Assembly (NCBI GenBank): GCA_001767435.1
Contig: MEKT01000147.1
Location: 25,281 to 89,280, forward strand
DNA: 64,000 bases
Direction: 5' to 3'
From: Acidobacteria bacterium RIFCSPLOWO2_02_FULL_65_29
GTDB taxonomy: Bacteria > Acidobacteriota > Vicinamibacteria > Vicinamibacterales > CAVVIG01
The position numbers and the translations under genes were made by a program. Positions 18,427-63,164 of the stretch are shown here, piece by piece; the first letter of the stretch is position 1, and each line of letters begins with the position of its first letter. The notes under the pieces were generated by a model. That model made no database searches, had not been told where the DNA came from, and saw only the letters and a program-made list of their open reading frames with translations.

Positions 18427-18464
18427 AACGACGTCACCACCGTGGACACGACCACTTTCACACC

Positions 18465-22063: not shown

Positions 22064-22145
22064 GTTCACAGTCGACAGTTGACAGTCCGATGCGGATGCC
22101 CAGACCGTCGAGGCGGGACGGGACTGTCAACTGTGAACTGTCAAC
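22064..22145. repeat. Large hairpin, ACAGTCGAC/TTGACAG word family
   Basis: acagttgacagtc (22075-22087) pairs perfectly with gactgtcaactgt (22122-22134), with a 34-nt loop. The flanking arms gttcacagtcgac / gaactgtcaac extend it imperfectly. Lies in a divergent spacer. A TATAAT on the minus strand is at 22161-22166. Confidence 0.8.
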
Positions 22146-22168
22146 CAACAGTCCGCTCACATTATAAG

Positions 22169-30929: not shown

Positions 30930-31009
30930 GGGCTCAGGGCCAACTTTCTTGCACTTGGAGTCAACCTCTCTGGTTTCTCGCGGCCCCGCCTCCGTTCGCG
31001 CGTCATACG

Positions 31010-31408
31010 CTACCAAACGGAGCGAACATGAGGATAGTCGCGCATTCTTCGATCCCTGGTGACCAACGTCGCGCCGTGATGCCTGGCAGTCGCCACGATA
31101 ATCTGGTCGGCCGGATCGCCGCGAAACGGCTGCGGCAGCCGGCAGCTGTCCACGAGAATTGGCGGGGTGAGCTCGGCCACGAGCAGTCCCGGCATCGCCG
31201 TGGCCTGATCGAGCCATTGATCCAGCGGCCGGTCCAGCACGAGCTGTCGCTTTTCGATCTTTTTCGCGACCTCCCACGCCGACATCAGAGACACCGCGAG
31301 CTGGCCGGCCCGCTGGCCACGCGCAATCGCCGCGCGGGCCTTGGGTGACAGCCGCCGATCCTCCGTCACCCACCAGATCCACGCATGAGTATCAAGAAGC
31401 GTCTGCAT
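31010..31408 (-). CDS. PIN-domain toxin (VapC-like)
   Basis: Trimmed to MQTLLDTHAWIWWVTEDRRLSPKA... C-terminus …DPADQIIVATARHHGATLVTRDRRM…. Overlaps the upstream antitoxin gene by 17 nt. Confidence 0.82.
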   Translation of the reverse strand: MQTLLDTHAWIWWVTEDRRLSPKARAAIARGQRAGQLAVSLMSAWEVAKKIEKRQLVLDRPLDQWLDQATAMPGLLVAELTPPILVDSCRLPQPFRGDPADQIIVATARHHGATLVTRDRRMRDYPHVRSVW

Positions 31409-34477: not shown

Positions 34478-34507
34478 GGGCTCAGGGTCCACATGCTTGC
34501 ACTGCCG

Positions 34508-34600
34508 GCTGGGCCCCCCGCCTCCGCTCGCCGATAACGCACGCGAGCTTCGGCGAGGCTCGCCGAAGCGCCGGAGGCGCGAAGGCGGCACCCCCGCCGG
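34508..34600. repeat. Family B hairpin repeat upstream of kinase 2
   Basis: cccccgcctccgctcgcc… followed by a perfect 10-bp stem cttcggcgag-g-ctcgccgaag (34548-34568). Shares words with 27046-27103 and 25805-25860. Confidence 0.75.
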
Positions 34601-34649
34601 GTGTTGACGCTGATGCCTCGGCTCCCGCCTCGGCATAGCCGCCGCCGCT

Positions 34650-51532: not shown

Positions 51533-52042
51533 ATGATCACGCTCAAGAACGTCCTCGTGGCGACCGACTTCGGCCGGGCATCGGAGACCGCGCTCGCGTA
51601 CGGCCGACAGTTCGCTCGGGCCTACGGCGCGAAACTCCACGTGCTCCACGTGGTGGAGAACGTGTTCACGGCGACCTTCGGAGTGGAGGGATACGTGACG
51701 AATGTCGCGGCCCTGCAGCGCGAGGTCGAGGAAGCCGCGCGCAAGCAGCTCGACGCCGTGGTCACCGAGGACGATCGGCGCGAGCTCGGCGCCACGGGGG
51801 TGACGCTCACGTCGGCCTCGCCCGCACTCGCGATCGTCTCGTACGCGAAGGACATCAAAGCCGATCTGATGATCGTCGGCACACACGGCCGCGGCGCGAT
51901 GGCGCATCTCATCATGGGCAGCGTCGCCGAGCGGGTCGTGCGGACGGCGCCGTGTCCGGTGCTCACCGTGCGGCACCCGGAGCACGAGTTCGTGCTGCCC
52001 GACGCGCTGCAGGTCGTGGAGCGGTCCGCCCAACAGCCGTAA
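51533..52042 (+). CDS. Universal stress protein (single UspA domain)
   Basis: 169 aa. MITLKNVLVATDFGRASETAL… and …LMIVGTHGRGAMAHLIMGSVAERVVRTAPCPVLTV…. Confidence 0.9.
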   Translation: MITLKNVLVATDFGRASETALAYGRQFARAYGAKLHVLHVVENVFTATFGVEGYVTNVAALQREVEEAARKQLDAVVTEDDRRELGATGVTLTSASPALAIVSYAKDIKADLMIVGTHGRGAMAHLIMGSVAERVVRTAPCPVLTVRHPEHEFVLPDALQVVERSAQQP

Positions 52043-52098
52043 GGACTCGTCCGCGACGAATACTGAGAACCAAGTCCGCTAGACGGAGGTGGCGCGTG

Positions 52099-52629
52099 AT
52101 GGTCTTCGCGTACCGCATCATGGGCGCCGCGATGCTCGACCAGGCGACCTTCGAGGAAATCGAGGGCGACCGAACGGCGACCGCTCAGGCGATGGGCGTC
52201 GTGCTGCTCGCGAGTCTCTCTGCGGGCATCGGGCTGGGCGGACTCGACGCCGGCCATCCCGTCTCGTTCGTGTTTGTGAGCGGTGCCGCCCTGCTCACGT
52301 GGGCCGTGTGGGCCCTCGTGACTTTCCAGGTGGGCGCGCGGCTCCTGCCCGAACCGCAGACCCGCGTCGATGTCGGCGAGCTGCTTCGCACGCTCGGCTT
52401 CTCGGCAGCGCCGGGTCTCCTGCAGGTCTTCGGCGTCGTACCCGGGTTGAGGGGACCGCTGTTCGCGTTCACGGCTGTCTGGATGCTGGCGTCGATGGTT
52501 GTCGCCGTGCGCCAGGCGCTCGACTACTCGACGATCGCCCGAGCATTCGCCGTGTGCGTCATCGGCTGGCTTCTGGCGTTCACAATCGCGGTGATTCTCG
52601 GACTCGTCTACGGCCCAACTCTTTCGTGA
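52099..52629 (+). CDS. Yip1-domain family membrane protein
   Basis: Extracted from the tail of ORF 50653..52629. ATG 52099 is preceded by GGAGGT. 176 aa, MVFAYRIMGAAMLDQATFEEIEGDRTATAQAMGVVLL… with 5 TM helices. Confidence 0.7.
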   Translation: MVFAYRIMGAAMLDQATFEEIEGDRTATAQAMGVVLLASLSAGIGLGGLDAGHPVSFVFVSGAALLTWAVWALVTFQVGARLLPEPQTRVDVGELLRTLGFSAAPGLLQVFGVVPGLRGPLFAFTAVWMLASMVVAVRQALDYSTIARAFAVCVIGWLLAFTIAVILGLVYGPTLS

Positions 52630-52636
52630 ACGGTCC

Positions 52637-52690
52637 CAAATCCTCAAGTCCTCACATCCTCAAATCCTCAAATCCTCAAATCCTCAAATC
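52637..52690 (+). repeat. Tandem octamer array AATCCTCA, about 7 units
   Basis: Reading: caaatcctca agtcctca catcctca aatcctca aatcctca aatcctca aatcc. Lies between convergent genes. Confidence 0.95.
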
Positions 52691-52700
52691 CGCGATCTAC

Positions 52701-53177
52701 CTAGGGCACTTGCATCGACGCGACGTGCTTCACGACGTTGCTGATGCGCACCTTCGCCAGTGTGTCCGAGGGATCGAGACCTCGGAAGATCGGCCCCCAC
52801 ACGGGCATCTCCCTCGTGCCGTGCGCCGGACTGGGCTCGCCTCCGTTGGTCACGAACGCCTCGATGCGCGCGGCCGGAAATGTGCCGGCGCTCTTGCGGG
52901 CGATGAGTGTCAGGTCGGCGGGAGGGACCTTCAGTGCAGCCGCCACCGGCCCGTGGCCCCTGCCGTCGCGGCCGTGGCAGGAGGCGCAGTAGAAATCGAA
53001 CAGATCCCGGCCCGTGATCGAATCGATGACGAGTGGCGGATTCCGCTGGCCTATGGTCTGGCCGGCAGAGCCGATGGCCGAGGCCCCTGTCAAGAATGTC
53101 AAGAATGTCAAGCATGTCAAGACTGTCAAGAATGCCGATGCTGTCAGCAACAGCGCGCCTTGCGCACGCAGGCCCAT
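52701..53177 (-). CDS. Monoheme class I c-type cytochrome, secreted
   Basis: 158 aa. One CASCH heme motif and a distal …REMPVWGP… Met ligand region. The hydrophobic core of the signal peptide (LTVLTCLTFLTFLT) is encoded by a 9-bp tandem repeat. Confidence 0.8.
   Translation of the reverse strand: MGLRAQGALLLTASAFLTVLTCLTFLTFLTGASAIGSAGQTIGQRNPPLVIDSITGRDLFDFYCASCHGRDGRGHGPVAAALKVPPADLTLIARKSAGTFPAARIEAFVTNGGEPSPAHGTREMPVWGPIFRGLDPSDTLAKVRISNVVKHVASMQVP
53089..53133 (-). repeat. In-frame 9-bp tandem repeat x5 (TTCTTGACA on the coding strand)
   Basis: Plus strand reads gtcaagaat gtcaagaat gtcaagcat gtcaagact gtcaagaat. The coding strand carries five TTGACA hexamers at a 9-nt period. Confidence 0.95.
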
Positions 53178-53225
53178 GATGTCTCTCCGTTCTCGTGTTG
53201 CGTCACCAGCTGAGGACCGTCCCTA

Positions 53226-54845
53226 TCAACCCATCTCCGCCGGCATCGCGGGCTCCCTCCTGGGCTCGGGTACCTCGGTCAACGTCGCCTCGGTGAGGAG
53301 GAGAACGCCGGCGACCGAGACGGCATTCTCGAGCGCGATTCGCACGACCTTGGTCGGGTCGATGATTCCGGCCTCGATGAGATCGACGTAGACGCCGCGG
53401 CTGGCGTCGAAGCCGTAGCCGCCGCTGCCGCCCATCATGCGATCGACGACGACGCCGCCGTCGGCGCCAGAGTTGGCGGCGATCTGCCGCGTCGGTATTT
53501 CGAGCGCGCGCCTGAGCATCAACGCACCCGTCCGCTCGTCGCCGGCCGACGCCGACGCCACGCGATCGACCGCCGCGATCGACCGAAGCAGCGCGAGGCC
53601 GCCGCCTGGCACGATGCCCTCGGCCATCGCCGCCCGGGTCGCGCTGATCGCGTCGTCAAACGCCTCGCGCCGGTTCTTCATCTCGGCTTCCGAGGGTGCG
53701 CCCACCCGAATCACGGCGACGCCGCCGGTCAGCTTCGCCAGCCGTTCCTGCAGCTTTTCGCGATCGTAATCGGACGTGGTCGTCTTCATCTGCTCGCGTA
53801 TCTCGTTGGCGCGCCCATCGATCGCCGCCTTGGTGCCGGCGCCGCCGACGATCGTCGTGGAATCCTTGTCGGCGATGACGCGTTTGGCCTGCCCAAGATC
53901 GGGCAGCGTCACGTTCGCCAGCTTGACGCCGATCTCCTCGGCGATCAATCGCCCGCCCGTCAGAATCGCGAGATCGTCCAGCATCGCCCGGCGACGATCG
54001 CCGAAACCGGGCGCCTTGACAGCCACACAGGGGAGCACGCCGCGGACCTTGTTCACCACGAGCGTGGCGAGTGCGTCGCCCTCGATGTCGTCGGCGACAA
54101 TCAGCAGCGCCTTGCCGCTCTTCGCGATTTGCTCGAGGAGAGGCAGCAAGTCCGTCATCGTGCCGATCTTCTTCTCGTAGATGAGGATGACCGGATCGTC
54201 GAGCACCGCCCGCATCTTCTCGGGCTCGGTGATGAAGTAGGGGGACAGGAAACCGCGGTCGATCCGCATGCCCTCGACGACCTCGACGGTCGTCTCGATG
54301 CCCTTGGCCTCCTCGACCGACGTCGTGCCCTCCGCACCGATCCGTTCCATGGCGTCGGCGACGATTTCGCCGATTGCCGTGTCGTTGTGCGCCGACACCG
54401 TGGCCACCTGCACGCGCTGCTTGTGATCGGCAACCGGGCGCGACAGCTCCCGGAGGCCCGCCACCACGGCCGCGAGCGCGCGATCGAGCCCGCGCTTGAG
54501 CTCGATGGCGCTCGCGCCCGCGGCGATGTTGCGCACGCCCTCGCCGAAGATCGACGTGGCGAGCAGCGTGGCGGTGGTCGTGCCGTCTCCGACGTTGTCG
54601 CCCGTGCGCTCGGCCGCCTCGCGAATCACCTGGGCGCCCAGGTTCTCCTCATGGTCGGCGAGCTCGAACTCTTTCGCGATCGTCACGCCGTCGTTGCAGA
54701 CGAGCGGCTTGCCCCACTTCTTCTCGATGAGGACGCATTTCGATTTCGGCCCGAGGGTGACGCGAACCGCGTCGGCCAGCGCGTTGGCGCCCTTCAGGAT
54801 CTTCTCGCGCGCGGCGGATTGAACGAGGAGTTGTTTGTGCGACAT
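53226..54845 (-). CDS. groEL: Chaperonin GroEL (Cpn60), no adjacent groES
   Basis: 539 aa. …[20 protein letters not shown]… and …[11 protein letters not shown]… signatures. The C-terminus lacks a GGM repeat tail. The upstream neighbour is a CBS gene rather than groES. Confidence 0.93.
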
Positions 54846-54857
54846 GATCCGCGCCTG

Positions 54858-54873
54858 TGCAAAGAGCTCGCCG
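54858..54873 (-). promoter_or_regulatory. Candidate sigma-54 (-24/-12) promoter for groEL
   Basis: Minus strand reads CGGCGAgctctTTGCA with exact GG-N10-GC spacing. The -12 C is 14 nt before the groEL ATG, there is no Shine-Dalgarno sequence, and the geometry is near-leaderless. Confidence 0.4.
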
Positions 54874-54932
54874 CCATCGCGTCAGCGCCACAGCGCCACC
54901 GCCGGAATCGCCGCGCCTCGAGCTGGATCCAC

Positions 54933-54948
54933 TGCCGAATTCCCGGCA
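54933..54948. promoter_or_regulatory. 16-bp dyad TGCCG-N6-CGGCA (candidate regulator-binding site / UAS)
   Basis: TGCCGAATTCCCGGCA. Centred about 93 nt upstream of the predicted groEL start site. Confidence 0.6.
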
Positions 54949-55042
54949 CCCGCTGGAGTGACTAAGGCCTTGGCCTTGGATTTCGGCCTCTTTTCGCGGG
55001 TCGCCCCGGGCACGACCCATGCGATAGCGAGGCGCGTGCGAC

Positions 55043-55495
55043 TCACCACGCCCGCTTGCCGGTGCGCTGCTTGCGGTGCGGCACACGATAATGAATGTCC
55101 GCCCGTATGGCCCGTTCCGGACGTCCGACGCCTCCCCCGACCAGTTCGAGCAGGTCCGAAATCGTCACGATACCCACGAGGCGCCGGCCATCGACGACCG
55201 GCAGGCAGCCGATCGTCCGGCCGCGCATGAGGTTGGCAGCCTTGCGAACCGTGGCGTCCGATTCGATCGTCGCGACGCGGGTCGTCATCAACTCGGCGAC
55301 GATGGCGCCGGCGCGAACTCGGGCGCCGCTCCGGCCGCCAGCGTCGCGGTCCGAGAGCACTCCGAGAATCTCCGTCCCGGCGGTGACGATAAGATGATGG
55401 ATGCGCTTGCGCCGCATCAGGTCCCATGCTTGGTCGGCCGGCATGGTGGCCGGCACGGTCTGCACACCCTCGGTCATGACTTCGGCAACTCTCAT
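55043..55495 (-). CDS. CBS-pair domain protein
   Basis: Trimmed to MRVAEVMTEGVQTVPATMPADQAWDLMRRKRIHHLIVT… with GGAGG 5 nt upstream. Second CBS motif …VAELMTTRVATIESDATVRKAANLMRGRTIGCLPVV…. Confidence 0.85.
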   Translation of the reverse strand: MRVAEVMTEGVQTVPATMPADQAWDLMRRKRIHHLIVTAGTEILGVLSDRDAGGRSGARVRAGAIVAELMTTRVATIESDATVRKAANLMRGRTIGCLPVVDGRRLVGIVTISDLLELVGGGVGRPERAIRADIHYRVPHRKQRTGKRAW

Positions 55496-55528
55496 AATGT
55501 CCTCCGGCGCGCGCAAGACCAGGTTTCA

Positions 55529-55544
55529 TACCGGAATCCCGGCG
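55529..55544. promoter_or_regulatory. Degenerate copy of the 16-bp dyad in the CBS/fdhA divergent spacer
   Basis: TACCGGAATCCCGGCG, 12 of 16 identical to the 54933 copy. Confidence 0.25.
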
Positions 55545-55597
55545 CCTTTCGATCGCTGTGCAAGGACGATACCCGCCGGCGGGTGGAAGGCGGCAGC

Positions 55598-58297
55598 ATG
55601 ATCGCCGCGCCCGTCGCCGGCGCCGCGCCCACGCTGTCGGTCGAGGTCAACGGTGCGCCCGACACACTTCCCGCCGGCGCAACGATTCTCGACGCGCTGC
55701 GCGCGGCGGGCGTGCACCTTCCGACCCTCTGCCACGACGAGCGGCTGACGCCGATCGGCGTGTGCCGGCTGTGCCTCGTACGCGTTCAGGGATGGGCGCG
55801 GGCAGTGCCCGCCTGCTCCACGCCGCTTCTCGACGGCATGCGCATCGAGACGAATGCTCGTGACCTGGAGGACGCGAGGCGTACGGCTCTGACGCTCCTC
55901 GCGCGGCGCTATCCGGCCGACGGCGTCGAGCGCGATCCGCACAAGGAGTTTCACCGCGCGATTCTCGAGCACGGCCTCGAACGCGAGTTGCTCCAAGCAT
56001 CTGCCCCGGGCCCGATCGATCGCTCGCACCCCTACATCGCCGTGGACATGTCGCGCTGCATCGACTGCTATCGCTGCGTCCGGATCTGCGACGAGGTGCA
56101 AGGGCAGTTCGTCTGGCACGTCCGCGATCGCGGGCTGGACACGCAAATCGTGCCCGACGGTCCGAGCCTGTTCGAGAGCTCGTGCGTCGGCTGTGGCGCG
56201 TGCGTGGACACGTGTCCGACCGGAGCGCTCGACGACGCCGCTCGGAGCCGCCTGGGCGCGGCGTCGGCCTGGACGAACACGACCTGTCCGTACTGCGGCG
56301 TCGGATGCGAAATGTCAGTCGGCGCGCGGGACGGCCGGATAGTCGCCGTCAAGCCGGTGCTGGATGCACCGGTGAACAAGGGCCATCTCTGCGTGAAAGG
56401 CCGGTACGCGTTCGAGTTCGTTGGCGCCGACGATCGCGTTCTGGATCCGATGATTCGCACCGGCGGCCAGTGGCGGTGCACCTCGTGGGACGAGGCCCTG
56501 ACGTTCGCAGCGGCGCGGCTTGGCGATCTGGTGGCCCGCCACGGACCCGACAGCGTCGGCGTGCTGGGATCGGCGCGCGCGACCAACGAGGAGAACTACC
56601 TCGCGCAGAAGTTCGCGCGCGTCGTGCTGGGCACCAACAACGTCGATTGCTGCGCGCGCGTCTGTCATGCGCCAAGCGCCGCGGCGCTGAAGCACTCGCT
56701 CGGCACAGGCCTCGGCACGAACTCGTTCGACGACATCGAAATCGCCAGGACGATCCTCGTCTGCGGCGCGAACCCGACGGAGAACCATCCGGTCGTCGGC
56801 GCCCGCATCAAGCAGGCGGTCCGGCGGGGCGCGGCGCTGATTGTCGTCGACCCGCGGCGAATCGAGCTGGCGTCCCTGGCAACCTGTCATCTCGCCGTGC
56901 GCCCCGGCACCAACGTCCCGCTCCTGAACGCGATGGCGCACGCGATCCTCGCCAAGGATCTGGTGGACCGGAGGTTCCTCGAAGCCCGCGTCGACGGTGT
57001 CGAGACGTTCGCCCGGAGCGTCGAGGCCTGGACGCCCGAGCGGGCCGCGGTCGTCTGCGGCGTCGACGCCGAACTGATTCGCCGCGCGGCCAGACTCTAC
57101 GCCACGAGGGCGCCCGCCATGAGCATCCACGGCCTGGGGCTCACCGAACACGTCCAGGGCACCGACGGCGTCACGCTGCTCATCAACCTCGCGCTCCTCA
57201 CGGGCAATATCGGCAAACCCGGCACCGGCATCAACCCGCTGCGCGGCCAGAACAACGTGCAGGGCGCGGCGCACATGGGCTGCGAACCGAACACGCTGCC
57301 AGGCGCCGCGTCGCCGAAGGACGGACGCGCCGTGTTCGAGCAGGCGTGGAAGCGCGAGATCCCCTCCACGCACGGACTCCACCTGCTGCACATGATGGAT
57401 GCGGCGCTCGACGGCCGCTTCAACGCGTTGTGGACGATCGGCTACGACGTGCTGCTCACCAACGCGAACGCCTCGGAGACCGTTCGCGCGATGCGCGCGC
57501 TCGATCTGGTCATCGTTCAGGACCTCTTCCTGACCGAGACCGCGCGCGAGGTGGGGTCGGTGTTCTTCCCCGCGTGCTCGTCGCTCGAAAAGGACGGCAC
57601 GTTCATGAATGCCGAACGGCGGATCCAGCGCGTGCGGCAGGTCGTCCGACCGCTCGGGCAATCGAGACCAGACTGGCGGATCATCTGCGACCTGGCGCGC
57701 GCCATGGGCCACGGTGAACTGTTCGATTTCCGCGAGCCGGAAGCGATCTGGAACGAGGTGCGCGCGCTCTGCGAGGGCGCGCGCGGCATGAGCTACGCGC
57801 GTCTCGATCGCGGGGGGCTGCAGTGGCCCTGCCCCTCCGAGGATCACCCCGGCACGAGCATCCTGCACCGAGACAGCTTCGCCGCCGGACCGCGCGCGGT
57901 GCTCCACGGCGTGGCCTACCAGCCGAGCCGGGAATCCACGGGGCCGGAGTACCCCTTCGTGCTCAACACCGGACGCTCGCTTTACCAGTTCAACGCGGGC
58001 ACGATGACCGGACGGACGCCGAACAACGCCCTCCGCCCCTCAGACCTGCTCGACATGTGTCCAGACGACGCGGATCGGCTCGGGCTGAGCGAGGGCGACA
58101 CCGCGCGCGTCATCAGCCGGTATGGCTCCGCGGTGCTGCCGGTCCGGCTGAACGCCGGCGTCCAGCCGGGACAGCTGTTCGCCACGTTTCACACGCCCAG
58201 CATCTTTCTGAACTCCACCACCGGATCCCACCGGGACGGCGCCACGGGCACGCCGGAGTACAAGGTGGCGGCGGTGCGCGTCGAACGGACCGCGTGA
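55598..58297 (+). CDS. fdhA: Formate dehydrogenase alpha subunit, Mo-bisPGD enzyme with NuoG-like N-terminal Fe-S domains (Cys type)
   Basis: Trimmed to MIAAPVAGAAPTLSVEVNG… with GGAAGG upstream. 2Fe-2S (…CHDERLTPIGVCRLCLV…), 4Fe-4S motifs (CIDCYRCVRIC, CVGCGACVDTCP), TTCPYCGVGCEM…KGHLCVKG, and active-site ARVCHAPS (Cys-His, no in-frame TGA). Confidence 0.88.
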   Translation: MIAAPVAGAAPTLSVEVNGAPDTLPAGATILDALRAAGVHLPTLCHDERLTPIGVCRLCLVRVQGWARAVPACSTPLLDGMRIETNARDLEDARRTALTLLARRYPADGVERDPHKEFHRAILEHGLERELLQASAPGPIDRSHPYIAVDMSRCIDCYRCVRICDEVQGQFVWHVRDRGLDTQIVPDGPSLFESSCVGCGACVDTCPTGALDDAARSRLGAASAWTNTTCPYCGVGCEMSVGARDGRIVAVKPVLDAPVNKGHLCVKGRYAFEFVGADDRVLDPMIRTGGQWRCTSWDEALTFAAARLGDLVARHGPDSVGVLGSARATNEENYLAQKFARVVLGTNNVDCCARVCHAPSAAALKHSLGTGLGTNSFDDIEIARTILVCGANPTENHPVVGARIKQAVRRGAALIVVDPRRIELASLATCHLAVRPGTNVPLLNAMAHAILAKDLVDRRFLEARVDGVETFARSVEAWTPERAAVVCGVDAELIRRAARLYATRAPAMSIHGLGLTEHVQGTDGVTLLINLALLTGNIGKPGTGINPLRGQNNVQGAAHMGCEPNTLPGAASPKDGRAVFEQAWKREIPSTHGLHLLHMMDAALDGRFNALWTIGYDVLLTNANASETVRAMRALDLVIVQDLFLTETAREVGSVFFPACSSLEKDGTFMNAERRIQRVRQVVRPLGQSRPDWRIICDLARAMGHGELFDFREPEAIWNEVRALCEGARGMSYARLDRGGLQWPCPSEDHPGTSILHRDSFAAGPRAVLHGVAYQPSRESTGPEYPFVLNTGRSLYQFNAGTMTGRTPNNALRPSDLLDMCPDDADRLGLSEGDTARVISRYGSAVLPVRLNAGVQPGQLFATFHTPSIFLNSTTGSHRDGATGTPEYKVAAVRVERTA

Positions 58298-60048
58298 AAT
58301 TCACCGCGCTCGCGCTCGACTACGACGGCACCATCGCCGTCGACGGCCGGTTCCATCCGGCCGTCCGTCAGGCGATCGGTGACGTGCGGCGGCAGGGCAT
58401 CGCGGTGGTGCTCGTCACGGGCCGCCGTCTGGCCGACCTGCATCAGGTGGCCGGCGATCTGACCTGTTTCGACGTCGTGGTCGGCGAGAACGGCGCCGTG
58501 CTCGAATTTCCGTCGAGCGGCCGGCACGTGACGATCGGGCACCGGCCGCACCCCGGCGTCGTCCGCGAGCTCCAACGGCGAGGCGTCGCGGTCGCAGCCG
58601 GAGAATCGATCATCGAGGCGGAGGCCGCGGCGGCGCCGATTGTCCTCGACGTGATTCGCACGCTCGAGCAGCCGCTCGTCCTTCTGTTCAACAGGAACCG
58701 GTTGATGATCCTGCCGCAGGCCATCGCGAAGTCCAGGGGACTGCGCGAAGCGCTGTTTGCGCTCCGGCTGTCCATTCACAACACCGTCGGCGTGGGTGAC
58801 GCCGAGAACGACCACGACCTGCTCGACGCGTGCGAAGTGGGCGTGGCGGTCGGCTGGGGCAGCCCAGCGCTTCGCGCCGTCGCGGACGAAGTCATCGATG
58901 GCGCCGGCCCCGAGGCCGTGGCCGAGTACATCAGGCGCGTCTCGAGGCAGACGCGGCTGTCGGCGGCGCAAATGGGCAGGCGCCGGCTGCTTGTCGGGCA
59001 CCAGCACAACGGCGACCCGGTGGAGCTGACCGTGCGAGGGAGGACGATTCTCATCGCCGGGGAGCCGGGCACGGGGAAATCGTGGCTCGCGGGACTCCTC
59101 TGCGAACAGTTGATTCTGCAGGGCTACTGCCTCTGCATCATCGATCCCGAGGGCGATTACCGCTCGCTCGAGGAGCTGCCGAGCGTGATCACGCTCGGGG
59201 GCGACGATCCGCCGCCGAGCGCGCGCGAGATTGCGCGCGCGCTGCGTCATCCCGACGTGAGCGTGATCGTGGACCTCTCAAGAGTCTCGCACCGCCAAAA
59301 GTTCCAGTACCTCACCACGCTGCTGCCGCTGCTCGTGAGCCTCAGACGCCGAACCGGCCTGCCCCACAAGATCCTCCTCGACGAGGCCCACTATTTCCTT
59401 GGAGGAGGCGACAGCGCGCAGCTCATCGATCCCGAGCTCGCCGGCTACATTCTCGTGACCTACAGGATCTCGGGACTCGATCCGTCGATCCGGACGACCA
59501 GCGACGCCGTCGTCATGGTGACCCACGAGACCGACCCGCTCGAGGCCGAGACGATTCGGAGCCTCTGCCGGCTCCCGGCGGGCGTGATCGTGCCGACCGA
59601 CGTGTTCCACAGTCTCGCGTTGAACGAGGTGGCGTTGCTGCCGGGGGTCGAAGAATCTCAGGGCCGGGTTCGGCGTTTTCAGCTCGCGCCCCGCCTCACC
59701 GCGCACGTTCGCCACCAATCCAAGTACCTCGACATGCCGGTGACCGAGGACCGGGCGTTCGTCTTCAGCGTTGGTGGACATTCCGGACCCCGCGTGAGGA
59801 CGCTCAAGGCGTTCATCGGGCTGCTCGCCGCTTTGCCCGCCGAAGAGATTGCGGCCCACCTTGGCCGCCACGATTTCTCGCGGTGGATCTTGGAGGTCTT
59901 CCGAGACGGTCCGCTGGCGGCGCACCTGCGGGGCATCGAGGACCGGGCCGACGGAGAGGAAACGCGCGACACCATCGAGGCGATCGCGCAGGCGATCCGG
60001 GCCCGGTACGAAGCCGTTGCCGAACCCGGAGCGCCGCTGCAGGATTGA
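58294..60048 (+). CDS. Fusion protein: HAD-IIB (Cof-type) phosphatase domain + HerA/DUF87-like P-loop ATPase + unassigned C-terminal domain
   Basis: GTG start overlaps the fdhA stop (GTGA). HAD motifs LDYDGT, VLVTGR and GVGDAENDHDLL. ATPase motifs IAGEPGTGKSW (Walker A), IIDPEGDY and ILLDEAHYF (Walker B). C-terminus …LGRHDFSRWILEVFRDGPLAAHL…. Confidence 0.75.
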   Translation: MKFTALALDYDGTIAVDGRFHPAVRQAIGDVRRQGIAVVLVTGRRLADLHQVAGDLTCFDVVVGENGAVLEFPSSGRHVTIGHRPHPGVVRELQRRGVAVAAGESIIEAEAAAAPIVLDVIRTLEQPLVLLFNRNRLMILPQAIAKSRGLREALFALRLSIHNTVGVGDAENDHDLLDACEVGVAVGWGSPALRAVADEVIDGAGPEAVAEYIRRVSRQTRLSAAQMGRRRLLVGHQHNGDPVELTVRGRTILIAGEPGTGKSWLAGLLCEQLILQGYCLCIIDPEGDYRSLEELPSVITLGGDDPPPSAREIARALRHPDVSVIVDLSRVSHRQKFQYLTTLLPLLVSLRRRTGLPHKILLDEAHYFLGGGDSAQLIDPELAGYILVTYRISGLDPSIRTTSDAVVMVTHETDPLEAETIRSLCRLPAGVIVPTDVFHSLALNEVALLPGVEESQGRVRRFQLAPRLTAHVRHQSKYLDMPVTEDRAFVFSVGGHSGPRVRTLKAFIGLLAALPAEEIAAHLGRHDFSRWILEVFRDGPLAAHLRGIEDRADGEETRDTIEAIAQAIRARYEAVAEPGAPLQD

Positions 60049-60071
60049 GAGATGGGGCTAGTGTCCCGTCA

Positions 60072-60752
60072 CTAGGCGCTCTTCGCGGCTGGACCGCTCT
60101 TGGGCGTTCCTTCAGTTCGCCCCGCGCGGGCCAGAAGCTGCCGCACCTCTTCGTCGGTCGTCTGGGCGAATTGCTGATACCAGAGGCCGACCGCCTGAAA
60201 CGGCTCGGGCCTCTGCAAACAGACGACCTCGTCGGCCATGCGGCCGAGCCGGTCGCAGGTGTCTCGAGCGCCCACGGGGACCGCCACGACGATCCGAGAT
60301 GGCTGCAGCCGCCGCAGCGCGATCACCGCCGCCTCCATGGTCGAACCGGTCGCCAGACCGTCATCGATCAGGATGACGAGGTGGCCGCGAACGGGAACGA
60401 GCGGGCGGCCCCCGCGAAAGAGCTGGTCGCGCCGATCCAACTCGAGGCGTTCGCGCACGGCAGTCTGCTGGACGAGCGTGCGCGGGATGCCCAAGTCCCG
60501 AATCAAATCCTCGCTCAGCACCTCGACGCCGCCCTCCGAGATCGCGCCCATCGCCAGCTCCTGGTGCCCCGGCACGCCGAGCTTGCGGACCAGAAACACG
60601 TCGAGCGGGACGCGGAGCTGTTCGGCCACTTCATACGCCACGGGCACGCCGCCGCGCGGCAAGGCGAGCACGACGACGTCGGCGCGCCCCGCGTAGGTCG
60701 CCAGGCGAACGGCCAGCTGGCGCCCGGCGTCGATTCGATCGTTGAAACGCAT
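60072..60752 (-). CDS. Phosphoribosyltransferase-family protein
   Basis: Trimmed to MRFNDRIDAGRQLAVRLATYAGRADVVVLALPRGGVPVAYEVA… PRPP-binding loop VILIDDGLATGSTM. Confidence 0.82.
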   Translation of the reverse strand: MRFNDRIDAGRQLAVRLATYAGRADVVVLALPRGGVPVAYEVAEQLRVPLDVFLVRKLGVPGHQELAMGAISEGGVEVLSEDLIRDLGIPRTLVQQTAVRERLELDRRDQLFRGGRPLVPVRGHLVILIDDGLATGSTMEAAVIALRRLQPSRIVVAVPVGARDTCDRLGRMADEVVCLQRPEPFQAVGLWYQQFAQTTDEEVRQLLARAGRTEGTPKSGPAAKSA

Positions 60753-60754
60753 CG

Positions 60755-61201
60755 TCAATCCGCTCCCGCGCGAGACGCAGCCCTCACAACACGGCGGCCC
60801 GGCCGCGGGTGTGTTTTCACCGCCCCGCGGCGCCGACGTGCGTAGTCCTGCAGTTCCCGCCGCGCCTTGTCGAAGACCTCGCGAAGGACGACGCGCGCAT
60901 CCTTGCGCGTCGCGTCGACCTCCGTGCGCTTGGTCGCTGCCAGCGCCTCGAGGCGCCGCTCGGTCGCGCGCAGCCGGGGCGCGTGGCTGACGACGATGTC
61001 CTCGCCGGGTACGCCCAAGTCGACACGCACCTGAAACCGGTTGCCGTGGAGCCGGTGGCGGTGCGGGATCTCCACGATCACCCGACAGGATATGATGTCG
61101 CGGCAATACGTAGCGAGCTTGGCCACGCGCCGGCGAATGTCGGCGTCGATCCACTCGGTAGACTTCAGATTGTGAAACTTGATCTCCAGGGGTGCCTGCA
61201 T
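60755..61201 (-). CDS. HPF/RaiA (S30AE)-like ribosome-associated protein
   Basis: Trimmed to MQAPLEIKFHNLKSTEWIDADIRRRVAKLATYCRDIISCRVIVEIPHRHRLHGNRFQVRVDLGVPGEDIVV…, the beta-alpha-beta-beta-beta-alpha YfiA-like pattern. Its stop lies 2 nt from the PRTase start. Confidence 0.65.
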   Translation of the reverse strand: MQAPLEIKFHNLKSTEWIDADIRRRVAKLATYCRDIISCRVIVEIPHRHRLHGNRFQVRVDLGVPGEDIVVSHAPRLRATERRLEALAATKRTEVDATRKDARVVLREVFDKARRELQDYARRRRGAVKTHPRPGRRVVRAASRAGAD

Positions 61202-61226
61202 CGATCGAACCTCGACGGTAGACAGA

Positions 61227-61242
61227 AGCACAAACGACGCCA
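61227..61242 (-). promoter_or_regulatory. Candidate sigma-54 (-24/-12) promoter for the HPF-PRTase operon
   Basis: Minus strand reads TGGCGTcgtttGTGCT with exact GG-N10-GC spacing. About 15-nt leader containing GAGG. Confidence 0.4.
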
Positions 61243-61282
61243 TCTCGAGCTCGGAACAGTGACCGGATCTGCGAGCAGGCTC

Positions 61283-61298
61283 TGCCGAATACCCGGCA
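61283..61298. promoter_or_regulatory. 16-bp dyad TGCCG-N6-CGGCA (candidate regulator-binding site / UAS)
   Basis: TGCCGAATACCCGGCA, in the divergent HPF / acs spacer. Centred about 75 nt upstream of the predicted HPF start site. Confidence 0.6.
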
Positions 61299-61379
61299 AA
61301 GTCTCCGGCGACTCGGCGGTCGATGTCACAATGGCCCACCGCGGACTGAGCAAGACCTTTGCAGGCAAGAGGATGGCTC

Positions 61380-63164
61380 ATGGCGTCTGACGCTTCTCTT
61401 CCAGCCTCGGGTACGCGCTGGCCCGCCATCACCAAACCGCGGAGCGATTGGAACGTCGTCCCCAACCTGGTGGACTACGACCGGACGCGCGCCGCGTTCT
61501 CGTGGGAGAACGCCCGCCGCGACCTCGATGGCCTGCCCGGCGGCCGTGGGTTGAATATCGCCCACGAGGCGGTGGACCGCCACGCCGCTGGCCGCCTCGC
61601 CACGCGCGTCGCCATCAGATGGCTGTCGAAAGACGGCCAGCGCAGGGAGCTCACCTACGCCGACCTGCGCGAGGGGACCAGCCGCTTCGCCAACGTGCTC
61701 CAGGCGCTCGGCATCGGCAACGGCGACATCGTGGCGGCGCTTGCCGGGCGCATTCCGGAGCTCTACATCGCGGCGCTCGGCACGATCAAGAACGGCAGCG
61801 TGTTCACGCCTCTCTTCTCCGCATTCGGCCCCGAGCCGATTCAGACTCGGATCAACATCGCCAAGGCCAGAGTGCTCGTGACCACCCCTGCCTTGTACCA
61901 GAAGAAAGTCGAAGCCCTGCGCGGATCCTTGCCAAGTCTCGAACACGTGTTGCTGGTCGGCGCTGGCGCATCGTTCGCTGGGACGCGCGACCTCGCCGCG
62001 CTCATGGCCGGAGCCGACAGCCAGTTCGTCATCCCGCCCACCGATCCGAACGACGTCGCGCTTCTGCACTTCACCAGCGGCACGACTGGCAAGCCCAAGG
62101 GGGCGGTCCACGTTCACGAGGCCGTCGTCGCGCACCACGCGACCGCCCGTTTCGCGCTCGATTTTCATGACGACGACATCTTCTGGTGCACGGCCGATCC
62201 GGGCTGGATCACCGGCACGTCCTACGGCATTATCGCGCCGCTGACGCACGGCCTGACGAGCATTGTCGATGAAGCGGACTTCGACGCCGAACGGTGGTAC
62301 ACGATTCTCGAGAAAGAGCGCGTCACGGTCTGGTACACCGCGCCGACGGCGATCCGCATGCTGATCAGGACGGGAGCGGCGGCGGCGCGAGCGCGTGATT
62401 TCCGATCGTTGCGCTTTCTGTCGAGCGTCGGCGAGCCCCTCAATCCCGAGGCCGTGCGCTGGGGCGTCGAGGCGTTTGGTCGTCCGTTCCACGACAACTG
62501 GTGGCAGACCGAGACAGGCGGCATCATGATCGCCAACTTCGCGGCCTCCGAGGTCAGGCCCGGTTCGATGGGGCGGCCGCTTCCGGGTATCGACGCCGCC
62601 ATCGTGCGGCGCGTCGACAATCGGATCGAGGTCATCGACGAGCCTGGCATCCAGGGCGAGCTCGCGCTCAAGCCGGGCTGGCCGTCGATGTTCCGCGCGT
62701 ATCTGTCCGACGACGTACGCTATCGCCGGTGCTTCGCGGACGGGTACTACCTGACCGGCGATCTGGCGCGGCGCGATTCGGACGGCTATTACTGGTTCGT
62801 CGGACGCGCCGACGACGTCATCAAGTCGTCTGGCCACCTCATCGGACCGTTCGAGGTCGAGAGCGTCCTTGTCGAACATCCGGCCGTGGCCGAAGCCGGC
62901 GTCATCGGCAAGCCGGATCCGATTGCGCTCGAAATCGTCAAGGCCTTCGTCGCGCTCAAGCCCGGGTTCGAACCGAGCGAGACCCTGCGCCGCGAGCTGC
63001 TGGCCTTCACGCGCGTCAGGCTGGGTGCAGCGGTCGCGCCGAAAGAACTGGACTTCCGTCCGAGCATTCCGAAAAACCGCGCGGGCAAGATCATGCGCCG
63101 GTTGCTCAAGGCGCGCGAGCTCGGGCTGCCCGAAGGCGACACGTCCACGCTGGAGGCGTCATGA
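61380..63164 (+). CDS. AMP-forming acyl-CoA synthetase, acetate--CoA ligase (AcsA-type)
   Basis: Trimmed to [11 protein letters not shown]… AMP-binding motifs [13 protein letters not shown], …WWQTETGG… and …[40 protein letters not shown]…. Confidence 0.85.

What the first reader, a model, noticed from the sequence alone, without database searches (positions are those of the whole stretch)
58294..60048. HAD phosphatase fused to a HerA/DUF87-like ATPase, translationally coupled to fdhA
A single 584-aa ORF combines three parts:
- a complete Cof-type HAD domain (DYDGT, VTGR, GDAENDHD)
- a P-loop NTPase with HerA/VirB4-like motifs (GEPGTGKSW, IIDPEGDY, LLDEAHYF)
- an unassigned C-terminal domain (…HDFSRWILEVFRDGPLAAHL…)

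Its GTG start overlaps the fdhA stop codon (GTGA). HerA-like ATPases normally partner with nucleases or other effector domains. A phosphatase fusion placed behind a formate dehydrogenase is not an arrangement I can assign to a known pathway.
Basis: partly seen in the sequence, partly recalled or inferred. Interest (0 to 1): 0.65.

Follow-up and report, generated by a model that had tools for sequence, protein, structure and literature searches.

The report
Stress-island phosphatase fused to ATPase
This is a real, widely conserved but uncharacterised bacterial protein that joins a small-molecule phosphatase to a HerA/FtsK-type ATPase and a domain otherwise found next to trehalose synthase genes; it sits among dormancy and stress genes, and its position behind formate dehydrogenase is only a local arrangement.

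Summary
ORF 58294..60048 (+) encodes 584 aa: a HAD-IIB/Cof phosphatase (residues 1-220), a minimal FtsK/HerA-superfamily P-loop ATPase (about 228-432) and a C-terminal domain. Its GTG start overlaps the fdhA stop (GTGA).

The fusion is not an artefact. Thousands of full-length homologues share the architecture, from 81% down to about 31% identity, in Acidobacteriota, Planctomycetota, Cyanobacteria, Nitrospirota, Actinomycetota and Proteobacteria. Catalytic residues of both enzymes are nearly invariant.

The "unassigned" C-terminus is DUF5752, homologous to OrfY of Thermoproteus tenax (PDB 4CSO). Stand-alone DUF5752 genes lay directly upstream of a TreT-type trehalose synthase gene in 5 of 5 genomes checked.

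The FDH linkage is lineage-specific: it occurs here and in the 81% relative, and fdhA is nearby in 3 of 82 loci. The recurrent context is a dormancy/hypoxia-type island (USP, CBS, BON, Hsp20, hibernation factor, P-type ATPase). Some Proteobacteria add GT4, GT20 trehalose-6-phosphate synthase and glycoside-hydrolase genes.

Best reading (about 0.4): a nucleotide-gated sugar-phosphate phosphatase acting in stress-protectant (trehalose-type) carbohydrate metabolism. I found no paper on the family, and databases call it only "HAD-IIB family hydrolase". I class it as a new variant of known kinds, of moderate interest.

The parts
58294..60048 (+). Complete gene for the 584-aa HAD-IIB / FtsK-HerA-type ATPase / DUF5752 fusion protein
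   Evidence: ORF and translation. A 100% identical protein, P0001, is called on an ENA contig. The full-length architecture is conserved in thousands of homologues.
58294..58297 (+). GTGA start/stop overlap with fdhA (possible translational coupling)
   Evidence: Read directly from the sequence. The same 4-nt overlap with a molybdopterin oxidoreductase gene occurs in the 81%-identical relative P0002. It is absent from P0003 and more distant relatives.
58294..58953 (+). HAD-IIB (Cof/SPP-like) phosphatase domain, residues 1-220. Motif I is DYDGT (58318-58332), motif II VTGR (58414-58425), motif III K146 (58729) and motif IV GDAENDHD (58795-58818). It carries a small C2B cap.
   Evidence: Pfam Hydrolase_3 at E 8.5e-21. 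TIGR01484 passes its cut-off. AF2 pLDDT is about 85-95. Foldseek matches PH1421 (1wr8) with target-normalised TM 0.82. D9, D11, T13, K146 and D173 are invariant or nearly so in 110 divergent members.
58975..59589 (+). Minimal FtsK/HerA-superfamily P-loop ATPase core, residues about 228-432. Walker A is GEPGTGKS (59059-59082), followed by IIDPEGDY (59137-59160), Walker B LLDEAH (59374-59391) and TYRIS (59458-59472), which aligns with HerA's 'QRP' stretch.
   Evidence: Pfam DUF87 at E 1.2e-7. The A5 profile matches HerA chains 9x1l (2e-8), 4d2i and 8j4u. Foldseek matches SIR2-HerA 8wj3 (1.6e-8), B204 4kfu (target TM 0.72-0.76), VirB4, FtsK and EssC. K262, D284 and E364 are nearly invariant, but R391 is present in only 54 of 110 members.
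59590..59748 (+). Family-specific connector, residues 433-485, with the nearly invariant basic motif R-x-T-x-H-V-R-H-x-x-K-Y (RLTAHVRHQSKY, 59692-59727)
   Evidence: Conservation: R473 in 106, H474 in 109, K477 in 107 and Y478 in 107 of 110 members. The region lies outside the stretch that aligns with OrfY. Model confidence is low at residues 470-476. Its function is unknown.
59749..60018 (+). DUF5752 / OrfY-like domain, residues about 486-575: a beta-hairpin plus a helical bundle, including HDFSRW at 59869-59886
   Evidence: The A3 profile matches both repeats of PDB 4CSO (OrfY, Thermoproteus tenax) at E 2.9e-16. Pfam PF19027 matches 26 of 29 family members; the window sequence alone is below threshold. 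F489, H522, D527 and W531 are nearly invariant.
55598..58297 (+). fdhA (formate dehydrogenase alpha subunit, 899 aa), the upstream gene overlapping the start
   Evidence: TIGR01591 at 728 bits against a cut-off of 666. Gene call on the identical ENA contig.
51533..52042 (+). Universal stress protein gene (island context)
   Evidence: Pfam Usp on L001. UspF-like NCBIfam match.
53226..54845 (-). GroEL/Cpn60 paralogue (island context)
   Evidence: Pfam Cpn60_TCP1 on L001. A GroEL gene recurs near the family in 5 loci.
55043..55495 (-). CBS-pair protein gene, divergent from fdhA (island context)
   Evidence: Pfam CBS on L001. CBS genes lie near the family in 10-11 of 82 loci.
60072..60752 (-). Phosphoribosyltransferase-family gene, convergent, 24 nt after the stop (island context)
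   Evidence: Pfam Pribosyltran on L001. It recurs in 7-10 loci.
60755..61201 (-). Ribosome hibernation factor-like gene (S30AE family; weak Pfam hit) (island context)
   Evidence: Pfam Ribosomal_S30AE (weak) on L001. Homologues lie next to the family in 5 loci.
61380..63164 (+). Acetate--CoA ligase gene (island context)
   Evidence: NF003313 at 888.6 bits against a cut-off of 729.

Best explanation
The gene encodes one polypeptide with two catalytically competent enzymes and a C-terminal module.

- **Phosphatase.** A capped HAD-IIB domain of the kind that acts on small sugar or acid phosphates.
- **ATPase.** A minimal FtsK/HerA-type P-loop domain.
- **C-terminal module.** A DUF5752 (OrfY-like) domain, preceded by a conserved basic RHxxKY connector.

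I propose that this is a nucleotide-gated sugar-phosphate phosphatase expressed with a dormancy, hypoxia or general-stress gene set.

- The HAD domain removes the phosphate from a glycoside phosphate or a related small metabolite. This would be the last step in making a protectant such as trehalose, or the step that releases it.
- The ATPase, probably as an oligomer, couples that activity to ATP binding or hydrolysis, and so to energy state.
- DUF5752 supplies the link to trehalose-type carbohydrate metabolism, by binding a sugar ligand or a GT4/TreT-like glycosyltransferase partner.

**Shown:** the architecture, conservation of the catalytic residues, homology of each domain, and the gene neighbourhoods.

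**Inferred:** the substrate class, the oligomeric state, the direction of regulation, and the role of DUF5752.
For: **1. The fusion is real and ancient.**
- 3773 homologues were found, and the best 120 are full length.
- 637 clusters at 50% identity match at E<=1e-30, with the three-part layout kept down to about 31% identity.
- The family spans many phyla.

**2. Both active sites are under selection.** In 110 divergent full-length members, these residues are invariant or nearly so:
- HAD domain: D9, D11, T13, T/S42, K146, D169, D173.
- ATPase domain: G256, K262, S263, D284, D/E363, E364.

**3. The HAD domain is the small-molecule type.**
- It has a C2B cap.
- The best fold match is PH1421 (1wr8), with target-normalised TM 0.82. 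Sugar phosphatases, T6PP and SPP follow.
- Weaker family matches include S6PP, the SPP subfamily and Trehalose_PPase.

**4. DUF5752 is tied to trehalose synthesis.**
- The C-terminus is homologous to OrfY (4CSO), at E 2.9e-16.
- 609 stand-alone DUF5752 proteins were found.
- In 5 of 5 genomes inspected, the DUF5752 gene lies immediately upstream of, or overlaps, a TreT_GT1 glycosyltransferase gene. These were Pyrobaculum, Saccharolobus, an unnamed MAG, a Nitrospirota genome and a Syntrophales genome.
- In 2 of those 5, TPS/TPP genes follow.

**5. Some family members sit next to carbohydrate genes.**
- Caballeronia: two GT4 genes directly upstream on the same strand, with a 15-nt gap.
- Aminobacter: a divergent GT4, a GDE_N_bis/MGH1-like hydrolase and a GT20 trehalose-6-phosphate synthase, with no separate phosphatase gene visible.
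- Stellaceae L067: a GT4 gene. Obscuribacterales L065: a GDE-like hydrolase.
- Planctomycetes and Nitrospiraceae: TreZ-like GH13 genes, plus GlgC 29 nt upstream in L083.

**6. The recurrent context is a stress or dormancy island.** Counts over 82 loci:

| Neighbour | Loci |
|---|---|
| USP | 26 |
| BON | 15-17 |
| P-type ATPase | 17 |
| CBS | 10-11 |
| Zn-ADH | 10 |
| ADP-forming acetyl-CoA synthetase | 10 |
| Hsp20 | 8 |
| Hibernation factor | 5 |
| Crp/Fnr | 5 |

- Sources.
- One variant carries a C-terminal hemerythrin domain.
- The gene content parallels the Burkholderia cenocepacia lxa locus (PMC3721108).
Against: - No partner gene is universal. TreT, TPS and TPP are absent from the window and from the 80 genome loci.
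- In the acidobacterial clade to which this window's protein belongs, no sugar gene is adjacent.
- The adjacent proteobacterial GT4s are generic GT4 and do not match the TreT_GT1 model.
- The HAD domain falls far below every equivalog cut-off, for example archaeal phosphoglycolate phosphatase at 64.7 bits against 198. The substrate therefore cannot be read from sequence.
- FtsK/HerA ATPases are normally translocases of DNA or protein, not allosteric modules.
- The residue at HerA's arginine-finger position (R391) is kept in only 54 of 110 members, so a classical hexameric motor cycle is uncertain.
- The depositors of 4CSO labelled OrfY a "transcription factor", which would favour a regulatory, DNA-binding role for DUF5752.
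- Models have moderate confidence (pLDDT 74-79, pTM 0.59), so the domain arrangement is not established.
- No paper on this family or on DUF5752 was found in the searched library, so there is no published activity or expression result to support the reading.
Confidence: 0.4

Rival explanations
1. DNA or nucleic-acid end processing. A HerA/FtsK-type motor loads on DNA, and the HAD domain removes 3'-phosphates, in the manner of polynucleotide kinase/phosphatase, to repair genomes during dormancy.
For: - The ATPase fold is closest to DNA translocases and packaging ATPases: HerA-NurA, SIR2-HerA, B204 and FtsK.
- A conserved basic RHxxKY motif could bind a phosphate backbone.
- From my own knowledge, pairing a P-loop domain with a DxDxT phosphatase recalls PNKP.
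Against: - The HAD domain carries a C2B cap typical of small-molecule phosphatases. PNKP-type phosphatases are capless (established HAD classification; fold matches).
- There is no HAS-barrel, and no NurA or other nuclease neighbour in 82 loci.
- Neighbours are metabolic or stress genes.
- The arginine-finger position is not conserved.
Confidence: 0.1
2. Regulatory or sensor protein. DUF5752 is a sugar-sensing or DNA-binding regulatory domain, with OrfY standing in for TrmB in treT/ABC-transporter clusters. The fusion would then act mainly as a signal transducer, with metabolite sensing by the HAD domain and an ATP-dependent switch, and not as a flux-carrying enzyme.
For: - The PDB depositors named OrfY a "transcription factor".
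- In Pyrobaculum and a Nitrospirota genome, the order orfY-treT-SBP-permease-permease-ABC ATPase puts OrfY where a cluster regulator would sit.
- The family often neighbours histidine kinases, response regulators and sigma-54 activators: 17-19 of 82 loci for each.
- One variant is fused to hemerythrin.
Against: - Every HAD catalytic residue is invariant, which is unusual for a pure sensor.
- orfY overlaps treT by 4-16 nt in 3 of 5 cases, which suggests stoichiometric co-production as for a subunit.
- No recognisable helix-turn-helix domain matched.
Confidence: 0.15
3. Anti-phage defence. A HerA-like ATPase scaffolds and activates a fused effector, here a phosphatase that would deplete a nucleotide or metabolite, as in SIR2-HerA or DUF4297-HerA systems.
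For: - Weak PADLOC matches to mad8 (E 1.3e-8, P-loop region only) and to HerA models.
- The structural neighbours are defence HerA proteins.
Against: - Sequence conservation is very high, with 70-81% identity across many metagenomic lineages and nearly constant length. From my own knowledge, defence genes are usually more variable and patchily distributed.
- The gene is single, with no variable partner.
- Neighbours are stress or metabolic genes, not defence islands.
- There are no phage homologues.
- The PADLOC matches cover only the Walker A region.
Confidence: 0.05
4. A phosphoglycolate or other C1/C2-metabolite phosphatase working with formate dehydrogenase, as the GTGA coupling to fdhA suggests.
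For: - The start/stop overlap with fdhA occurs here and in the 81% relative.
- The best NCBIfam equivalog-type matches and the best fold match are to the archaeal phosphoglycolate phosphatase family (PRK01158, TIGR01487, PH1421, TA0175).
Against: - Scores are far below the cut-offs: 64.7 against 198, and 63.1 against 122.75.
- fdhA lies within 10 kb in only 3 of 82 loci and is not adjacent in two of them.
- The 76% relative has no fdhA.
- This reading does not explain the ATPase or DUF5752.
Confidence: 0.07

Closest known systems
HAD-IIB (Cof-type / SPP-like) phosphatases, e.g. PH1421 (1wr8), TA0175 (1kyt), YidA, BT4131, sucrose-phosphate phosphatase, trehalose-6-phosphate phosphatase
   Same: All four HAD motifs and a C2B cap are present. 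The fold match has target-normalised TM 0.82, and the TIGR01484 cut-off is passed.
   Different: Known members are about 220-290 aa stand-alone enzymes or are fused to glycosyltransferases. None characterised carries a P-loop ATPase and DUF5752. No equivalog model is met, so the substrate is unknown.
FtsK/HerA superfamily ATPases (HerA-NurA, SIR2-HerA, DUF4297-HerA, VirB4, FtsK, STIV2 B204)
   Same: It has the ASCE P-loop core with Walker A, the 'DPEGDY' strand and a Walker B DEAH box. Profile and fold similarity are significant.
   Different: - The core is only about 200 aa, closest in size to viral B204.
- It has no HAS-barrel and no helical insertion domain.
- It has no nuclease, Sir2 or membrane partner.
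- The arginine-finger position is variable.
- It is fused to a metabolic phosphatase.
OrfY / DUF5752 (PDB 4CSO, Thermoproteus tenax), the gene upstream of treT
   Same: The C-terminal roughly 90 residues are homologous to each OrfY repeat (E 2.9e-16) and share the F-x-F ... H ... (N/G)DFSRW signature.
   Different: OrfY is a stand-alone two-repeat protein of about 220 aa, encoded directly before TreT. Here a single repeat ends a 584-aa enzyme, and no TreT gene is adjacent.
Two-step compatible-solute pathways and the T. tenax trehalose synthase complex (TPSP activated by a GT4 partner; PMC3634074)
   Same: A HAD phosphatase works with a GT4 glycosyltransferase and accessory proteins in stress-related sugar synthesis. 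GT4 or GT20 genes flank some family members.
   Different: No ATPase is part of those systems. Any link here rests on gene neighbourhood in a minority of genomes.
Hypoxia/dormancy gene islands: the Burkholderia cenocepacia lxa locus (PMC3721108), and the Mycobacterium tuberculosis DosR regulon (from my own knowledge)
   Same: The neighbours have the same make-up: multiple USPs, alpha-crystallin/Hsp20, BON 'phospholipid-binding' proteins, cation P-type ATPase, Zn-ADH, acetate metabolism, nitroreductase and cytochrome c.
   Different: Table 4 of the lxa paper, as far as I read it, lists no HAD-ATPase gene. I could not test whether DosR-regulon organisms carry a homologue. No expression data exist for this gene.

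Membership tests
HAD superfamily, subfamily IIB | Motif I DxDx(T/V), motif II (S/T), motif III K, motif IV (G/S)DxxxD / GDxxND | tested here: met
   D9-Y-D11-G-T13, T42, K146 and G168-D169...N172-D173 are present. They are nearly invariant in 110 members.
HAD superfamily, subfamily IIB | C2B alpha/beta cap inserted between motifs II and III; passes the subfamily model | tested here: met
   The model shows a cap at about residues 80-140. The fold matches HAD-IIB structures, with target TM up to 0.82. TIGR01484 scores 51.8 against a cut-off of 41.8.
Specific HAD-IIB enzymes (phosphoglycolate phosphatase, SPP, T6PP, MPGP, Cof/HMP-PP phosphatase) | Score above the equivalog/subfamily cut-off | tested here: not met
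   All are below cut-off: PRK01158 64.7/198, TIGR01487 63.1/122.75, TIGR00099 69.3/137, TIGR01482 48/107.
FtsK/HerA superfamily of P-loop ATPases | ASCE core with Walker A GxxGxGKS/T, Walker B hhhhDE, and fold similarity to superfamily members | tested here: met
   GEPGTGKS and ILLDEAH are present. Profile matches to HerA chains reach E 2e-8 to 5e-7. Foldseek probability is 1.00 to HerA, VirB4, FtsK, B204 and EssC.
HerA proper | N-terminal HAS-barrel domain | tested here: not met
   Only about 30 residues (a beta-hairpin at 231-246) separate the HAD domain from the P-loop. Pfam DUF87 covers profile positions 24-68 of 220 only.
HerA proper | Conserved trans-acting arginine (the 'QRP' motif) for a ring ATPase | tested here: inconclusive
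   TYRIS aligns with HerA VSQRPS, and R391 is present in this protein. Across the family it is R in only 54 of 110 members.
HerA proper | Operon partner nuclease or effector (NurA, Sir2, DUF4297) | tested here: not met
   No such neighbour appears in 82 loci or in 9 Pfam-annotated contexts.
HerA proper | Hexameric ring assembly | not testable with these tools
   Only monomer prediction was available.
DUF5752 (PF19027) / OrfY | Sequence homology to the OrfY repeat | tested here: met
   The family profile against 4CSO gives E 2.9e-16, with both repeats aligned. 26 of 29 members hit PF19027, with a best E of 4.8e-9. The window sequence alone reaches phmmer E 0.0066 to 4CSO and gives no Pfam hit.
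DUF5752 (PF19027) / OrfY | Gene immediately upstream of a TreT-type glycosyltransferase | tested here: not met
   This holds for 5 of 5 stand-alone DUF5752 genes. No TreT lies near the fused family. The adjacent proteobacterial GT4s lack a TreT_GT1 match.
Known anti-phage defence systems (PADLOC) | Full-length match to a defence protein model, and a defence-island context | tested here: not met
   Only P-loop-local matches were found: mad8 positions 8-85 of 314, and HerA models at E 1e-3 to 1e-2. The context is stress or metabolic. There are no phage homologues.

The most novel reading that the evidence does not exclude
A previously unrecognised class of metabolic switch. A ring-forming HerA/FtsK-type ATPase has been recruited from DNA or protein translocation to gate a fused sugar-phosphate phosphatase according to cellular energy state. 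DUF5752 would be the shared adaptor that links it, and TreT, to trehalose-type protectant metabolism. The result would be a core effector of dormancy entry or exit in Acidobacteriota and many other soil and water bacteria.
Probability: 0.25. Interest if true: 0.7.

Novelty: new variant of a known kind. Interest (0 to 1): 0.5.

Why it matters
**Scale and setting.**
- The family is large: thousands of sequences, 637 clusters at 50% identity at E<=1e-30.
- It is strongly conserved.
- It is concentrated in abundant but poorly studied soil phyla.
- It is embedded in gene sets resembling known hypoxia and dormancy loci.
- I found no published function for it.

**If the proposed reading is right.**
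- It would be a first example of an FtsK/HerA-type ATPase used as a regulatory or assembly module for a small-molecule enzyme.
- It would give a first functional handle on DUF5752/OrfY.
- It would add a testable component to how uncultured soil bacteria manage protectant sugars and energy during dormancy.

**If it turns out to be ordinary.**
- Tying DUF5752 to TreT, and showing that the FDH linkage is incidental, still correct what an annotator would otherwise infer.

Tried and rejected
- **Frameshift or assembly artefact.** Rejected: homologues have the same length, and the architecture holds down to about 31% identity.
- **FDH as a conserved partner.** Rejected: 3 of 82 loci, with a start overlap only in the closest relative.
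- **Sigma-54 (-24/-12) or FNR/CRP boxes in the 250 nt upstream across 83 loci.** No enrichment over shuffles: 0 and 6, against 0 and 4.2 expected.
- **Sigma-70 promoters and terminators around the gene.** Nothing above chance.
- **TreT, TPS, TPP or OrfY genes near the family or in the window.** None found by tblastn.
- **Adjacent proteobacterial GT4s as TreT-type.** Not supported by Pfam.
- **Stand-alone ATPase+DUF5752 proteins (P0137, P0140 and others) as evidence for a split gene.** Most start with non-Met residues and may be truncated metagenome calls, so I did not use them.
- **Literature.** No paper was found for DUF5752, OrfY or this architecture. The CASP10 paper I recalled was not held. 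The lxa-locus paper lists no HAD-ATPase in the parts I read.
- **Phage collection.** No match.
- **Rfam and tRNA scans of the window.** Nothing.
- **Foldseek with the full-length model.** It returned only HAD hits, so a truncated model was needed to see the ATPase.
- **Fold-level confirmation of the DUF5752-4CSO match.** Not obtained, because ATPase hits filled the top-50 list.

Full report
**1.

The + strand ORF 58294..60048 encodes 584 residues. Its GTG start shares three bases with the TGA stop of the upstream gene (…ACC GCG TGA AAT…). That upstream gene (55598..58297) is a true formate dehydrogenase alpha subunit: TIGR01591 scores 728 bits against a cut-off of 666.

Codon-position GC (0.73/0.46/0.86) is what a real gene in a 67% GC genome shows. 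The start is confirmed by homologues that begin MKF(A/T)ALALDYDGT at residue 1. The long antisense ORFs (58189..59250 and 59278..59925) recur in other loci only as shadows of the sense gene.

**2. The fusion is real and old.**

- A word-indexed search found 3773 homologues. The best 120 are 571-616 aa, cover 98-100% of the query at 69-81% identity, and carry the same Pfam pair.
- An exhaustive HMMER scan of 1.84 billion cluster representatives found 5528 hits, 637 of them at E<=1e-30. Most listed hits align end to end (residues about 1-575), down to 31-35% identity.
- A scan of one genome per species placed the family mostly in Acidobacteriota. It also occurs in Planctomycetota, Cyanobacteria (Calothrix, Scytonema, Pseudanabaena), Nitrospirota, Methylomirabilota, Chloroflexota, Actinomycetota and Proteobacteria.
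- Annotated replicons add Sinorhizobium, Agrobacterium, Aminobacter, Paraburkholderia, Caballeronia and Synechococcus PCC 7502. There the protein is named only "HAD-IIB/HAD family hydrolase".
- A sequencing or assembly artefact is excluded.

**3. Anatomy.**

*Residues 1-220: phosphatase.*
- This is a HAD-IIB phosphatase: Pfam Hydrolase_3 at E 8.5e-21, and TIGR01484 above its cut-off.
- The AlphaFold model is confident here, with pLDDT about 85-95.
- It superposes best on PH1421 (1wr8), with target-normalised TM 0.82. Other capped sugar phosphatases follow, including trehalose-6-P and sucrose-P phosphatases.
- No enzyme-specific model is met, so the substrate is not readable from sequence.

*Residues about 228-432: ATPase.*
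- This is a P-loop ATPase of the FtsK/HerA superfamily.
- A family profile hits HerA chains: 9x1l at 2e-8, 4d2i at 2e-7 and 8j4u at 5e-7.
- A model of residues 222-584 matches SIR2-HerA, HerA-NurA, VirB4, FtsK and EssC. It superposes best, with target TM 0.72-0.76, on the minimal viral packaging ATPase B204.
- There is no HAS-barrel and no insertion domain.
- R391, which aligns with the R of HerA's "QRP" motif, is kept in only 54 of 110 divergent members.
- It is therefore a superfamily member with a minimal core, and not HerA proper.

*Residues 433-485: connector.*
- This stretch contains a nearly invariant basic motif, RxTxHVRHxxKY.

*Residues about 486-575: DUF5752.*
It is DUF5752.
- A profile of this region hits both repeats of PDB 4CSO (OrfY of Thermoproteus tenax) at E 2.9e-16.
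- 26 of 29 members match PF19027, although the window's own sequence is below threshold.

*Conservation.*
- Across 110 full-length representatives, the HAD nucleophile and motif residues and the Walker A/B residues are essentially invariant.
- Both enzymatic centres are therefore under purifying selection.

**4. What DUF5752 points to.**

- I rebuilt most of the OrfY sequence from the HMMER alignment and searched with it. This recovered stand-alone DUF5752 proteins in Crenarchaeota.
- A profile of those proteins found 609 more, including proteins from Nitrospirota, Thermodesulfovibrionales and Syntrophales.
- In all five genomes inspected, the DUF5752 gene lies immediately upstream of a TreT-type GT4 trehalose synthase (PF21269). 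These were Pyrobaculum ferrireducens, Saccharolobus solfataricus, an unnamed MAG, a Nitrospirota genome and a Syntrophales genome.
- The genes overlap by 4-16 nt in three of the five. In two, trehalose-6-P synthase/phosphatase genes follow. In two, a sugar ABC transporter follows.
- DUF5752 is thus a conserved companion of trehalose synthesis. Whether it is a subunit, a ligand sensor or a DNA-binding regulator (the PDB entry calls it a "transcription factor") is not known.
- I found no paper on it.

**5. Neighbourhoods of the fused family.**

I called ORFs in 82 loci, clustered them, and used seed searches.

*No universal partner exists.*

*fdhA is rare.*
- It lies within 10 kb in only 3 loci and is adjacent only here.
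- The 81%-identical relative has the same 4-nt overlap with a molybdopterin oxidoreductase gene.
- The 76% relative does not.

*The recurrent neighbours are stress genes.*

| Neighbour | Loci (of 82) |
|---|---|
| Universal stress proteins | 26 |
| Histidine kinases | 19 |
| Response regulators | 19 |
| BON proteins | 15-17 |
| Cation P-type ATPases | 17 |
| Sigma-54 activators | 17 |
| CBS proteins | 10-11 |
| Zn-alcohol dehydrogenases | 10 |
| ADP-forming acetyl-CoA synthetases | 10 |
| Phosphoribosyltransferases | 7-10 |
| Hsp20 | 8 |
| Hibernation factors | 5 |
| Crp/Fnr regulators | 5 |
| GroEL | 5 |

*Pfam-annotated contigs agree.*
- They also add nitroreductase, dienelactone hydrolase and erythromycin-esterase-like genes.
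- Replicons from Agrobacterium, Paraburkholderia and Synechococcus show the same kind of island.
[quoted passage not shown] From my own knowledge, it also parallels the mycobacterial DosR regulon.
- One variant carries a C-terminal hemerythrin domain.

*This window.*
- The island spans about 51.5 kb to the window end.
- Gene order: USP, cytochrome c, GroEL, CBS, fdhA, the fusion gene, phosphoribosyltransferase, hibernation factor, acetate-CoA ligase.

*A second, minority association is with carbohydrate genes.*
- Caballeronia: two GT4 genes directly upstream on the same strand.
- Aminobacter: a divergent GT4, a GDE_N_bis/MGH1-like hydrolase and a GT20 trehalose-6-P synthase, with no separate phosphatase gene.
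- A Stellaceae genome: a GT4 gene. A melainabacterium: a GDE-like hydrolase.
- Planctomycetes and a Nitrospiraceae genome: TreZ-like genes, plus GlgC.

**6. Most likely mechanism.**

I propose a nucleotide-gated sugar-phosphate phosphatase of stress-protectant (trehalose-type) carbohydrate metabolism, expressed with a dormancy, hypoxia or general-stress gene set.

- The HAD domain performs the chemistry.
- The ATPase, probably oligomeric, couples it to ATP binding or hydrolysis.
- DUF5752 links it to a sugar ligand or a GT4 partner.

Shown: architecture, homology, catalytic-residue conservation and neighbourhoods. Inferred: substrate class, oligomer, regulation and the role of DUF5752.

Weaknesses:
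- No sugar gene is adjacent in the acidobacterial clade to which this window's protein belongs.
- The adjacent GT4s are not TreT-type.
- FtsK/HerA ATPases are not known as allosteric modules.
- The arginine-finger position is variable.
- I found no published activity or expression data for the family.

Confidence is about 0.4.

**7. Rivals.**

- **DNA-end processing (0.10).** This is argued against by the capped HAD type, the absence of a HAS-barrel and nuclease, and the context.
- **Regulatory/sensor protein (0.15).** This is supported by the depositor's label for OrfY and by regulator-rich neighbourhoods. The invariant catalytic residues argue against it.
- **Anti-phage defence (0.05).** Only P-loop-local PADLOC hits were found. 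Conservation is high, the context is stress-related, and there are no phage homologues.
- **Phosphoglycolate or C1-linked phosphatase tied to FDH (0.07).** Scores are sub-threshold, and the linkage is not conserved.

**8. Comparison and novelty.**

Each domain belongs to a known superfamily. The combination is present in sequence databases but is named only "HAD-IIB family hydrolase". There is no dedicated NCBIfam model, and I found no literature on it. I class it as a new variant of known kinds. Interest is moderate (0.5): a large, conserved, uncharacterised family in dominant soil phyla, with a now-testable link to trehalose metabolism and dormancy, but without direct functional evidence.

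Noticed in passing
window 51533-63164, continuing beyond the window end on L001 to about locus position 21700: The 3' quarter of the window is a stress or dormancy-type island. It holds USP, cytochrome c, a GroEL paralogue, CBS, fdhA, the fusion gene, phosphoribosyltransferase, an S30AE-like hibernation factor and acetate-CoA ligase. On the identical ENA contig it continues with E1/E2 2-oxoacid dehydrogenase genes, an acyl-carrier-like protein, BON, a sigma-54 activator, NifU and a response regulator.
   Followed up: partly
L084 5001-6871; L085 5001-6895; L086 5001-10024; L100 6001-7880; L101 6001-10155: Stand-alone DUF5752 (OrfY) genes lie directly upstream of TreT-type trehalose synthase genes in Crenarchaeota, Nitrospirota, Syntrophales and an unnamed MAG (5 of 5). 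The genes often overlap by 4-16 nt. I found no paper describing this pairing.
   Followed up: yes
protein P0233 (855 aa), residues 618-736: One family member carries an extra C-terminal hemerythrin (O2/NO/iron-sensing) domain. P0155 (855 aa) has an unassigned 280-aa N-terminal extension.
   Followed up: no
window 59692-59727 (residues 467-478): The motif RxTxHVRHxxKY is nearly invariant between the ATPase core and DUF5752. It lies outside any known domain model and is poorly modelled (pLDDT <50 at residues 470-476). Its role is unknown.
   Followed up: partly
L090 1678-6821 (Aminobacter plasmid pANY103b); L091 4811-6985 (Caballeronia): A conserved GT4 with the N-terminus MKIAQVAPLYESVPP...YGGTERI recurs beside the family in Proteobacteria. 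In Aminobacter it comes with a GDE_N_bis/MGH1-like glycoside hydrolase and a 606-aa GT20 trehalose-6-P synthase. This may be a cassette for an unidentified glycoside.
   Followed up: partly
window 58189-59250 (-) and 59278-59925 (-): Long antisense ORFs (353 and 215 aa) lie inside the gene. Their counterparts cluster across loci only because the sense gene is conserved, which is typical of high-GC DNA. They are not genes.
   Followed up: yes
window 22079-27019 (+); 28173-31382 (-); 31736-34636 (-): Outside the island are an Lhr-type large helicase (1646 aa) and two tandem Ser/Thr protein kinases fused to PD40 beta-propeller repeats. Elsewhere there are PurH (4185-5807) and a NuoM-like antiporter subunit (8915-10447). 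No tRNA or Rfam family was found in the 64 kb.
   Followed up: no
window 10444-12540 (-) and 16549-18570 (+): Two long ORFs (about 697 and 673 aa) have no Pfam match at E<=1e-5. Each overlaps other long ORFs, so they may be spurious or may be uncharacterised genes.
   Followed up: no
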